Shown piece by piece: positions 21,491-62,865 of a stretch of 64,000 bases of DNA. The translations under genes and the position numbers were made by a program. Position 1 is the first letter of the stretch. The number at the start of each line of letters is the position of its first letter. The DNA is taken from positions 26,908,001 to 26,972,000 of the forward strand of contig OX597831.1 of the NCBI GenBank assembly GCA_951406725.2, written 5' to 3'. The notes under the pieces are model-generated. The model was given only the letters and a program-made list of their open reading frames with translations. It did not search any database and was not told where the DNA came from. The DNA comes from Octopus vulgaris (lineage: Eukaryota).

Positions 21491-21528
21491 TCTTTCTGTC
21501 GAAGAGCGTAGGCTCGAAACGTAAAAGA
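21491..21528 (+). ncRNA. Minimal type-I hammerhead-like motif, variant core CUGUCGA (family F element 21490-21623)
   Basis: Stem I tcttt/aaaga, core ctgtcga+a, stem II gagc-gtag-gctc, GAAA, palindromic ACGT stem III, GUA site. Confidence 0.6.
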
Positions 21529-21746
21529 CTTGTTTTATTTCTATTCCTGAGCGTCATACTAATACATTTGTTTGTTTGTACTCCACCTGCCTTCGTCTTT
21601 TGTTTATTTTCGTAAACCTTCCCGTTATACATATATATATACACACACACACACATATATATATATATATATATATATATATATATATATATATATATAT
21701 ATATATATATATATATATATATATATATATATATATATATATGTGT

Positions 21747-21962
21747 GGAGGCGCAATGGCCCAGTGGTTAGGGCAGCGGACTTGCGGTCGGAGGATCGCG
21801 GTTTCGATTCCCAGACCGGGCGTTGTGTGTGTTTATTGAGCGAAAACACCTAAAAGCTCCACGAGGCTCCGGCAGGGGATGGTGGTGATCCCTGCTGTAC
21901 TCTTTCACCACTCTAAAAGGCGGTGCTCCAGCATGGCCGCAGTCAAATGACTGAAACAAGTA
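21747..21962 (+). mobile_element. SINE head C joined to the family A 3' tail
   Basis: Head C runs to ctctttcaccac, then continues as aaaggcggtgctccagcatggccgcagtcaaatgactgaaacaag. Confidence 0.85.
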
Positions 21963-22919
21963 CAAAAAAAAAATATATATATATATATATATATATGTAT
22001 GTATGTATATATGTATGTATGTATGTATGTATATTATGATGCTCGCTCCTGTCGGTTTCGACATATAAGTGTTTGAAGGAGAAGACTTAAAGTCAAAGAA
22101 AGAAAGAAAGAAAAACATTAAGAAGCTGCGTCTATTTGCGATGGATGCGTGAATGTAATTTGTGTCCAGGGATGTATTTTGCTATGAAGTCGCAATGGAG
22201 ATAGGGCTAATGTGTCAGTTGGTTGCAGGCTAGAGTTCGTCTATTGTTCATCTTTTTCAACTCAAATTGTTTGGATGCACCGTAACATATGTTACGCCAT
22301 GTAAATCGACTTAGGCAATGACTTTCCCAAAATGTTAAGTTAAGCTATAGAGATTTTAGTGATTGCCTCAACTTATCTTCGTACCTAAGGACAGGTCTTT
22401 CTTTATCGCAATATCCCTCCACTTGTTGGCATTACAAAAGAATTTTTGGAATGCGGTCATTTTTCTTTCGAACAACATGTCCTACCCAACTGCACCGAAT
22501 TCTCATCAGCATGCTTTGGATACTGGAGGTATCACATTTTTCTAAGATTTTGACTTTGAATATCTTATTTGCCATTTTACGTTGCATATGTTGCGCAAAC
22601 AGCATATGTGAAAGGTTTCAAGTTTCTTTATATGTCTGCAGTATGAAGTCGATGATTCTATCCCATACAAAATGTGCTCTAAGTACAAGATTTATATACA
22701 CTTATTTTCATTTTCTGACTGACATCGTGTTCATCCCACAAAAGATGGCAAAGTATTTGTAGTGGCTTCATGCTGGCATAGCATGTATTCGATCCTTGAT
22801 TGCCAAATTTCACTTAACACTTCAACAGCGCTTTTTTCATGGTAAAACTATAGTTTTTTTTCTGTGAATGACAGCAGTTATACATTTCCCAGATGCCTTC
22901 GCTGAGCAGAATAATGTCT

Positions 22920-60300: not shown

Positions 60301-60587
60301 GTGGATAAATTCCCTGGGGAGCCGTTTGAGGGCAAAGGAAAATGAATGGATATTTCCTTTGGCTAGGAAAATGAATGGGTTATTTCCCTTGACTGTTAAA
60401 GGAAAATATATGTAGGTTGTATATGTGGACCCCTTCTAGCCATCCAATTATAGATTCTTATTAAACTTCACTGAGCCTAGTAACAAACTGGATGTTACTT
60501 TAAGATGTTTACAAAGTTTCACGAAAATTCGTTAACGACTGCAGTCGGCAACTTGACACAGACAACTCGCTTTTATATATGTATGGA
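57326..60587 (-). mobile_element. Decayed Helitron with Rep and PIF1-type helicase remnants (many stops, frameshifts and deletions)
   Basis: Rep motif PYNPLLS...HVNVE...SIKYVGKYINK. Helicase motifs FFLEAPGGTCKS, VASSGIVATLLSGGRTAHS, RAILAPKN, LLRNLDPPKLCNGTRL, IPRIPL and VFSHGQL. A TC-type 5' end lies near 60587, and the 3' end position is approximate. Confidence 0.93.
57400..57765. repeat. ~142-bp diverged tandem repeat in the Helitron subterminal region
   Basis: aaatcgtgaa...gttacgtaataaca...ttatgcgttcc occurs twice, about 142 bp apart, with a partial third copy upstream. Confidence 0.7.
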
Positions 60588-62444
60588 TAGATAGATAGAT
60601 AGATAGATAGATAGATAGATAGATAGATAGATAGATAGATAGATAGATAGATAGATAGATTTCTTTACTGCCCACAAGGGGCTAAACACAGAGGGGACAA
60701 ACAAGGAAAGGCAAACGGATTAAGTCGATTACATCGACCTCAGTGCGTAACTGGTACTTAATTTATCGACCCCGAAAGGATGAAAGGCAAAGTCGACCTC
60801 AGATAGATAGATACACATATTTATATATCTGTATACATATATACATATATTAAACTGATAAGTGTAGATATTAGATCTTGATCTTAGCCTGTGTATATAT
60901 ATATATATATATATATATATATATATATATATATATATATATATATATATATATATATACAGACATACACACACACTCAAACATATACTTACATATATAT
61001 ATATATGTGTGTGTGTGTTCTTTGATAAGCAGACGGCCTCAAATTTGGTGAGATATGGCAGCGGGCGGGTAGTGGGGTTAGTTGAATAAATCGACCGCAG
61101 TAATTGACTGGTATTTTTATTTCATCGACCCACGAGGGACGAAAGGAAAGGTTGGCCTGAGCGGGAATAGAACTCGGAACGTTGAGAACAAGAACAAAAT
61201 AGTGCAAGTCATATTCACTGAAAACTTAATGATTCTACCAGCCCTTAATGATATATATATAATGATATTTTTGCATAAAGAGGGAAATTGAAGCAATTAC
61301 AGTGGACGTAAGGAGGGAGTGCTCCTGTGGAATGGGGGGAAGGGGGACTATTAAAGAGTCCGGATAGAAAAGAAGAGGAAGCAGGTTACGAAGAGGATGA
61401 GGGGGGCATATTCTGTGCGTCTGACTGTCAGTGTGTCTGTCCTTTTGAACGCATACACACTCACACACACACATAACTATACATACATACATACATACAC
61501 ATATCTGTATATATTATATATATATATATATATACATATCTCATATATATATATTCATGTATGTATTATGTATGTATTATATATATGTATGTATATATAT
61601 ATATATATATATATATATATATATAACATACATATGTGTGTGTTCATGTAATTATATATATATATTTGGTTGAGCTGTATAAAGTGGATAACTATACCAT
61701 TTATTTCTTCATTATATATACATACACACATACACACACACACACATATATATATATATATATATATATATATATATATATATATACAAACATATGTATA
61801 TAATATATATATTATATACGCATTATATATATGTATGTGTGTATATACACATATGTGTGTGTGTGAGTGTGTGTGTGTCGGTATGTGTATGAAGGTGAGG
61901 GTATGCGTTTATATGTGTATATTAACAGCTGTATGTAAGTGGTGTATTTACGCAATATAAATCAGCAAGTAATGGTGTATATATAATGCCTGTTATATGT
62001 AGCACCATTTCTTCCTAGTGAATCTCGTGAGACTATATAAACACATATGCGCACATGTTTATCTACACCTACGTACATACAAACGCGTGCATATGTGTGA
62101 GTGTTACATACACAAACACATAGACACGAACACACACACATATGTGTATATATATATATATATATATATATATATGAAACGTGTAATGGTGGATAAATAA
62201 TATCAATAAATTTTACAACTTCCTGTTTTCTTATGTATACATATGTGTGTGTGTGTGTGAGAGAGAGTGTGTGTGTGTGTGTATGTATGTAGTTATGTAG
62301 GTAGGTAAGGAGGAGGAAGGGAGGCAGGCAAGCAGGTAGGTAGGTAGGTAAATAGGTAACGAGTCGAATGATTGAAGAATAGATTAGTTGTGAATACATA
62401 TATAGATTTATAAGACACACACACCCCACACACATATATAAATA

Positions 62445-62865
62445 TTTTTTCTCTCCTTTTTTTGACTCTCCCTTTTTTTTCTCCTTGTTTCTCTCCTTGT
62501 TTTTTTTTCTCTTCTTGTTTCTCTCCTTGTTTTTTCTGTGTACCTTTCTGTAGAAGGGTGTAGGCTCGAAACGTAAAAGACTTTTTCTATTCCTGAGCGT
62601 TATACTAATTGTTTTGTACACCACCTGTCTTCGTCTTTTGTTTTTTTCGTAAACTTTCCCTATATATATATATATATATATATATATATATATATATATA
62701 TATATATATATATATATATATATATATATATATACAAAAAAAAGACGAAGACAGGTGGTGTAGACAATAAACAGATGTATTAGTATAACGCTACGGAAGT
62801 GAAAAAGTCTTTAACGTTCCGACCCTACGCTCTTCCACAGAAAGAAACACAGAAAGAAGCAAAGT
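62445..62865. mobile_element. Inverted pair of family F elements around (TA)n; hammerhead-like motif at 62544-62579 (plus) and a decayed one at ~62805-62845 (minus)
   Basis: Plus copy reads cttt-ctgtaga-a-gggt-gtag-gctc-gaaa-cgta-aaag. The segment caccacctgtcttcgtctttt is mirrored by aaaagacgaagacaggtggtg. Confidence 0.85.

What the first reader, a model, noticed from the sequence alone, without database searches (positions are those of the whole stretch)
21491..62865. Family F: abundant minimal hammerhead-like motif with A6 replaced by U (CUGUNGA)
Five copies (21496, 33448, 55863, 62548, ~62835 minus) have CUGU-N-GA, with N varying among C, A and G as position 7 does in real hammerheads. Stem II changes stay pairable: GAGC/GCUC, GGGU/GCUC and GAGC/GUUC. 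A related copy at 25979 keeps A6 (CCGACGA), linking the family to a canonical ancestor. A6 is normally near-invariant, so this is either a tolerated core variant or a catalytically dead fold retained as a cis signal for mobilisation. A truncated copy at ~36160-36262 (minus) stops at the GAAA.
Basis: partly seen in the sequence, partly recalled or inferred. Interest (0 to 1): 0.7.

Follow-up and report, generated by a model that had tools for sequence, protein, structure and literature searches.

The report
Active retrotransposon with U6 hammerhead core
These repeats are the tail ends of a very recently multiplying jumping gene whose small self-cutting RNA motif carries U in place of a normally fixed A in about 16,000 exact copies; the rest of the motif stayed unchanged while its flanks drifted, so it is likely a slowed but still maintained ribozyme that the element probably does not need to cut in order to copy itself.

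Summary
Observation confirmed with corrections. Family F is not a stand-alone repeat: it is the 5'-truncated 3' end (pseudo-LTR) of an autonomous Neptune-type Penelope-like retrotransposon (RT + CxxxxCxxC linker + GIY-YIG, 4.5-kb unit, near-identical full-length copies). Its minimal type I hammerhead has U6 in the master lineage: 15,954 exact U6 motifs against 184 A6 and 430 C6/G6; the latter are scattered point mutations. Across seven subfamilies (flanks 7-36% apart) 3 of 34 motif columns vary against 59 of 115 flank columns (p=7e-6); the varying ones are N7, the cleavage-site H17 (A/U/C, never G) and one wobble. Insertion ends do not map to the cut site. Best reading: a selected, slowed, probably protein-assisted hammerhead whose cutting is not needed to make the DNA copy; a dead fold kept as a protein-binding signal is the main rival. 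Corrections: two of the five copies are broken, the stem II changes are single-copy decay, and 25979 is a sister family with its own variant (U4C). This scan reported the same U6 core before, in this genome and in shark-like genomes. Cleavage untested.

The parts
21489..21625 (+). 5'-truncated 3' end of the Neptune-type element, subfamily F3 (older C7 branch); U6 hammerhead motif 21496-21523, predicted cut after 21523; ends at (TA)n
33407..33580 (+). old copy, subfamily F7; U6 core at 33448 but stem II insertion and G at position 17 (broken motif 33448-33482)
55799..55971 (+). copy of subfamily F2; U6 motif 55863-55890 with one private G-U in stem II
62515..62660 (+). copy of subfamily F1; U6 motif 62548-62575 with two private wobble changes; tail-to-tail with the next copy across one (TA)n tract
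62736..62858 (-). copy with subfamily F2 flanks; U6 core from 62840 down to 62813, GAAA broken (GGAA) and stem II mismatch
36163..36262 (-). F1-type copy truncated inside the motif: starts at GAAAC, keeps the uncut site and the 3' tail
25905..26105 (+). sister family G (about 210 nt, common 5' boundary); hammerhead motif 25979-26005 with A6 and C4

Best explanation
Family F is the 3' terminal repeat of a recently multiplying Neptune-type Penelope-like retrotransposon whose minimal hammerhead has carried U at core position 6 through all seven subfamilies examined, and the motif is likely a slowed, dimer- and protein-dependent self-cleaver whose cutting is probably not needed to make the DNA copy. 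Shown: the element structure, U6 in both terminal repeats of full-length copies, constraint on the motif, insertion into (TA)n with the 3' end about 105 nt past the predicted cut, and 5' ends not piled at the cut. Inferred: a tandem or read-through transcript is bound by the element's RT-endonuclease; the endonuclease nicks (TA)n; reverse transcription starts internally at the unit junction and runs through an uncut (or re-ligated) hammerhead, usually stopping early and leaving 100-250-nt tails. U6 would keep most transcripts uncut (loss of A6 contacts, plus a predicted U6-A15.1 pair that closes the core), while occasional cutting of two motifs paired through the AACGUU/ACGU palindrome would release or circularise unit-length RNA for the rare full-length founders on which selection acts.
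For: Long copies run upstream into a GIY-YIG ORF. 26 of 30 loci picked by protein have the motif within 1.5 kb downstream, all read U6. All 20 long-ORF loci carry the U6 core; 11 also have it in an upstream repeat about 4.5 kb away, one with three in tandem; 19 ORFs differ by a median 0.35%. U6 15,954 vs A6 184 vs C6/G6 430; non-U copies scatter over subfamilies and over a tree. 25 of 25 copies found by the downstream flank alone in 1.264 Mb of unselected DNA and retaining the core have U6; 85 of 88 in the motif-unselected rerun. Subfamily consensuses: 3 of 34 motif columns vary vs 59 of 115 ungapped flank columns, p=7e-6; the changes are N7 (all four bases), H17 (A, U, C) and one helix I wobble, the pattern a hammerhead allows. 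Helix I covaries between families F, G and H. Literature: natural A6C hammerheads are slow but active (PMC3088659, PMC7151607); the Poseidon PAc hammerhead cuts only with its protein and catalytic mutants still insert in vitro (PMC11167929).
Against: No cleavage data. In a pairwise mutagenesis of a type III hammerhead all CUGA-region mutants except the C3-G8 swap had low activity (PMC9901934), and A6C cut >10,000-fold slower in Mg than Mn at 0.3 mM in one context (PMC7151607), so A6U in an already weak minimal motif may be effectively dead. Loop II (4 nt) is also invariant and other short 3' UTR blocks are invariant, which points to sequence-specific binding rather than catalysis alone. H17 changed only about three times, so avoiding G is weak evidence. 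No recurring foreign sequence joined at the cut site among 47 + 16 rows, and truncations at the site are not clearly above neighbouring positions. The closing U6-A15.1 pair is predicted strongly in only 4 of 7 subfamilies. Subfamily groups were hand-defined; F4 has 6 and F7 3 members.
Confidence: 0.55

Rival explanations
1. The motif is catalytically dead and is kept as an RNA structure or sequence signal that the element's protein recognises (RNP assembly, placing the internal RT start about 105 nt downstream).
For: Loop II and stem II are invariant in sequence, not merely in pairing. Sister family G amplified to 11,560 exact copies with a second core change, C4 in 74 of the first 100 listed. 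Nearly all copies span the uncut site; U6 is predicted to close the core into a rod in F1, F3, F5, F6. PAc catalytic mutants insert normally (PMC11167929).
Against: The only freely changing columns are exactly N7 and H17, and every catalytic and core residue other than 6 is unchanged; a binding signal for a rod would not obviously free just these two.
Confidence: 0.3
2. U6 is a fully tolerated variant: in the dimer, with the protein or with Mn2+, it cuts as well as A6.
For: A6C keeps good activity in Mn2+ (PMC7151607); the lineage thrived through seven subfamilies without reverting.
Against: Mutagenesis shows low activity for CUGA-region changes with no rescuing second mutation (PMC9901934); no compensating core change is seen here.
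Confidence: 0.1
3. The motif is a functionless relic that hitch-hiked; U6 is simply the mutation that killed it in a successful master.
For: Genomic copies decay freely; Naiad elements thrive without a canonical hammerhead (PMC8557442).
Against: 0 of 10 other core positions and none of stem II changed while flanks diverged up to 36%.
Confidence: 0.05

Closest known systems
Minimal type I hammerheads (min-HHR) of metazoan Penelope-like elements (Cervera and De la Pena 2014, PMC4209133; main text parts 1-2 of 4 and supplement part 2 of 3 read)
   Same: In the pseudo-LTR; 4-5 bp helix I; extra A between 9 and 10.1; G10.1-C11.1; palindromic 15.2-16.2 in place of helix III; mostly solitary truncated copies.
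   Different: U at position 6. All 44 rows of their Figure S3 alignment that I saw (of 56) have A6, though their descriptor required it; their only core exception in the text read is U3-A8.
Neptune clade of EN+ Penelope-like elements (Craig et al. 2021, PMC8557442; passages and supplement passages)
   Same: RT followed by CX2-5CxxC linker and C-terminal GIY-YIG with CCHH; partial tandems; (TA)n targeting; by eye the protein follows the Neptune rows (Neptune1_Ap, Neptune1_Nv) of their alignments rather than Nematis.
   Different: Non-canonical hammerhead core; no named close relative (best database hits 54-59% identical, unnamed).
Poseidon PAc hammerhead of Anolis (Frangieh et al. 2024, PMC11167929; passages and section 3 part 2)
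   Same: Hammerhead upstream of the insertion's 3' end; internal RT start; no ends at the cut site.
   Different: Canonical core, overlaps the ORF start; here the motif lies about 720 nt before the likely start codon and has U6.
Natural A6C hammerhead of phage Bcep176 (PMC3088659 passages; PMC7151607 parts 1-2 of 4)
   Same: Natural loss of A6.
   Different: C not U; single prokaryotic-virus example with full architecture, not a fixed state of a high-copy animal retroelement.

Membership tests
EN+ Penelope-like element | Single ORF with RT and C-terminal GIY-YIG endonuclease | tested here: met
   RVT_1 E=4.6e-8 above cut-off; GIY-YIG E=0.0064 below Pfam cut-off but YIG/CCHH motifs read directly
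EN+ Penelope-like element | Partial tandem / pseudo-LTR arrangement with 5'-truncated copies | tested here: met
   11 of 20 long loci have an upstream repeat with the motif, unit about 4.5 kb; variable 5' ends
Neptune clade | CX2-5CxxC linker between RT and EN, long spacer | tested here: met
   C-x4-C-x2-C in the ORF; compared by eye with PMC8557442 Fig. S2 rows
Neptune clade | Microsatellite (TA)n targeting | tested here: met
   3' ends abut (TA)n in nearly all copies shown
Neptune clade | Placement in an RT phylogeny with named Neptune elements | not tested
   no reference proteins were available from a tool; no tree built
Minimal type I hammerhead of PLEs | Helix I, helix II with G10.1-C11.1, extra nucleotide 9.1, palindromic helix III surrogate, NUH site | tested here: met
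Hammerhead ribozyme (canonical core) | C3 U4 G5 A6 N7 G8 A9 / G12 A13 A14 A15.1 / U16.1 H17 | tested here: not met
   U at position 6 in 15,954 of 16,568 exact matches; all other core positions met
Hammerhead ribozyme (canonical core) | Site-specific self-cleavage | not testable with these tools
   only contigs, no raw RNA reads; genomic 5' ends inconclusive
Non-LTR retrozyme | Non-coding short tandem repeats each with a type I hammerhead | tested here: not met
   copies are dispersed truncated tails of a coding 4.5-kb unit

The most novel reading that the evidence does not exclude
U6 is a selected brake: it converts the hammerhead into a self-closed rod (U6 pairing with A15.1) that stays uncut until the element's own protein refolds two copies, and the same change was fixed in Neptune elements of distant animals (cephalopod-like genome here, shark-like genomes in this scan's unchecked notes), defining a large class of Penelope hammerheads that CUGANGA-based searches cannot see.
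Probability: 0.2. Interest if true: 0.72.

Novelty: new variant of a known kind. Interest (0 to 1): 0.47.

Why it matters
Why Penelope-like elements keep hammerheads is open: cutting is weak in vitro and dispensable for insertion in the one reconstituted system. Here an intact, very young autonomous element supplies protein and RNA together with a natural core mutation, so U6 versus U6A versus a dead core can be compared for cutting, protein binding and insertion in one system. It also shows that descriptor searches demanding A6 miss tens of thousands of motifs in a single genome (about 50,000 copies extrapolated from 15 in 800 kb).

Tried and rejected
Rfam scan: only microsatellite-driven miRNA matches among the 150 of 350 rows shown. 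First search for a partner by GIY-YIG profile returned other PLE families (U3-A8 hammerheads), not F's. Idea that A6 copies form an ancestral subfamily: rejected, they scatter; idea of a C6 sublineage in old subfamily F6 (12 C, 6 A, 1 G, 81 T in the first 100 of 791): no clade in a 44-copy tree with position 6 masked, though resolution is poor. Cut-site pile-up: (first 100 of 741 rows, 42 loci, tallied by eye) 5 at -2..0, 4 at +1, 5 at the control TA at -15, 8 at +8/+9, 6 at +12..+14; (all 47 rows) 5 at 0/-1; (all 16 rows, 12 truncations) 4 at 0/-1 against about 2.4 expected: inconclusive. Chimeras at the cut site (lead from e1-8797406): no recurring foreign partner. Sequencing runs: no RNA holder listed on record, contigs only; not used for expression. 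Metagenome scan: 24 of 119 stretches gave a pairable motif, none near a PLE ORF within the DNA held; one has an A6 partner arm, so single decayed copies are likely. Viral contigs: nothing. Cluster look-up gave no names for the closest proteins. No PLE ORF remnant in the window at E<1e-4. Lunse et al. 2017 (small PLE hammerhead variants) could not be read and may list U6; literature searches showed no natural U6 PLE hammerhead and no measured A6U rate.

Full report
Setting. The window is G000:C18:26908001-26972000 in a 2.8-Gb, microsatellite-rich animal genome; that it is an octopus is my inference from recalled repeat sequences and genome size, not a tool result.

Observation. The five CTGT-N-GAA cores, the CCGACGAA copy at 25979 and the truncated copy at 36163-36262 are present. 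Three of the five keep a complete motif; 33448 and 62840 are broken. Each motif has the layout of the minimal type I hammerheads of Penelope-like elements described in PMC4209133 (text parts 1-2 of 4): a 4-5 bp helix I, an extra A after A9, a GAGC/GCUC helix II, GAAA, a palindromic ACGU in place of helix III and a GUH site.

What the family is. The best genome matches are 150-250-nt pieces with ragged 5' ends and a fixed 3' end on (TA)n. Longer copies extend through about 1 kb of low-complexity UTR into a GIY-YIG reading frame. A protein search found 150 scored loci; of the 30 returned, 26 have the motif within 1.5 kb downstream, all with U6. Twenty loci chosen for long open frames show an ORF of about 970 codons from the likely start, with RT (RVT_1 E=4.6e-8), a C-x4-C-x2-C linker and a CCHH GIY-YIG; all 20 have the U6 core downstream, 11 also in an upstream repeat about 4.5 kb away, and L246 has three in tandem. 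Nineteen of these ORFs differ by a median 0.35%, so the U6 element has been active very recently. Linker, (TA)n target and the look of the RT against the Neptune rows of PMC8557442 (by eye) place it with Neptune; no tree was built. The unit junction lies at a short TA tract about 105 nt past the predicted cut, which is where genomic 3' ends fall.

How fixed is U6. With the exact stem II context the genome holds 15,954 U6, 184 A6 and 430 C6 or G6 motifs (13 of the first 100 of the last are G). The A6 copies examined (30 of 184) sit in every subfamily, and A6 and C6 copies of the old subfamily F6 do not form clades. In 1.264 Mb of DNA not chosen for the motif, a profile of the downstream flank alone found 34 copies; the 25 that retain the core all have U6. 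Fifteen of them lie in the 800-kb random sample, which extrapolates to roughly 50,000 copies. A rerun without loci picked by the motif gave 85 U, 2 A, 1 C of 88.

Is the motif constrained. 171 copies were sorted by flank signatures into seven subfamilies (5 left unassigned), with median non-CpG divergence from their consensus of 2.4% (F1), 4.4% (F3), 6.2% (F2), 7.0% (F4), 11% (F5), 12% (F6) and 14% (F7); F1 and F3 values are pulled down by how loci were chosen. Their consensus flanks differ by 7-36%. Of 34 motif columns 3 vary, against 59 of 115 ungapped flank columns (Fisher p=7e-6; downstream only 48 of 100, p=3e-5). The three are N7 (A, G, U, C), H17 (A, U, C; never G) and one helix I position in F7 that leaves a U-G pair. 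The motif-unselected rerun gives the same consensus for F1, F2, F3, F5 and F6; F4 and F7 have too few members. Laid contigs from four runs show the same thing from another side: depth peaks over the motif and loose ends gather at both its borders. Against a purely catalytic reading, the 4-nt loop II and a few other short UTR blocks are invariant too.

The A6 relative. 25979 belongs to family G: 11,560 exact motifs, of the first 100 listed 98 have A6 and 74 have C4. G shares short flank blocks with F; none of 22 copies seen links to an ORF and most stop at or inside one 5' boundary, so it is likely non-autonomous. G, its older relatives, family H and the U3-A8 families beside other GIY-YIG ORFs all have A6, so U6 is the derived state. 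Helix I differs between F, G and H while staying paired.

Do ends mark the cut. No. Almost all copies span the site. Among truncated ones the site is used about as often as neighbouring positions with TA microhomology (42 loci), with at most a non-significant hint in the youngest subfamily (4 of 12 against about 2.4). No recurring foreign partner is joined at the site. The RT template is therefore uncut or re-ligated RNA, as found for PAc, whose hammerhead needs the protein to cut and whose catalytic mutants still insert (PMC11167929).

What U6 would do. Natural A6C is slow but active and prefers Mn (PMC3088659, PMC7151607); CUGA-region mutants had low activity with no rescue in a pairwise scan (PMC9901934). 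I found no measured A6U rate. Folding predicts that U6 pairs with A15.1 and extends a closed rod (pair probability 0.81-0.98 in F1, F3, F5, F6; 0.5 in F4, 0.3 in F2, 0 in F7) and raises the cost of opening the core by 1-2.4 kcal/mol over A6 in those four, but lowers it in the other three. This is a model, not evidence of function.

Verdict. A real, derived, lineage-wide core variant in an active Neptune-type element. I put 0.55 on a slowed, assisted but working hammerhead, 0.3 on a dead fold kept as a protein signal, 0.1 on full activity, 0.05 on a relic. My searches and the 44 of 56 alignment rows seen in PMC4209133's supplement show no U6 PLE hammerhead, but Lunse et al. 2017 was not readable and may contain it. 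This scan's notes already hold the same variant in this genome and in shark-like genomes; they are unchecked and are not counted as support. Other papers seen only as passages or first part: PMC6765202, PMC6155905, PMC4176186, PMC13282606, bioRxiv 10.64898/2026.07.22.740005.

Noticed in passing
window 25905-26105; genome-wide: Family G, about 210 nt with a common 5' boundary, has at least 11,560 copies and a majority U4C core: a second abundant core variant, likely non-autonomous.
   Followed up: partly
L158:1390-1650, L189:1480-1650, L073:8566-8769: Apparent G/F hybrids: G-type 5' flank joined to an F-type motif and tail (L158, L189), and G flanks with a U6 core (L073); the switch lies in the shared GAAGAGC, not at the cut.
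   Followed up: no
window 62515-62858: Copies of two different subfamilies (F1 plus strand, F2 minus strand) inserted tail-to-tail into one (TA)n tract.
   Followed up: yes
L122-L145: Another young PLE family with intact 781-aa frames carries a U3-A8 hammerhead without the extra A; L131 and L137 share a further variant reading GCAA for GAAA.
   Followed up: partly
L069, L079: Family H (canonical core) occurs as head-to-head inverted pairs.
   Followed up: no
window 5723-6487: 336-nt inverted repeat, 89% complementary, 93-nt spacer.
   Followed up: no
window 36464-36764 and 1090-2129: 70-bp GC-rich tandem repeat (4.3 copies) and a 15-bp array of 69 copies.
   Followed up: no
P0001-P0028: A tight group of unnamed, high-copy PLE proteins at 54-59% identity stands above named mollusc, coral and urchin hits (44-52%); their hammerhead state is unknown.
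   Followed up: partly
L384, L393, L448, L367: Metagenome stretches with U6 minimal-hammerhead-like motifs and 6-7 bp helix II; single copies, state of their families unknown.
   Followed up: partly
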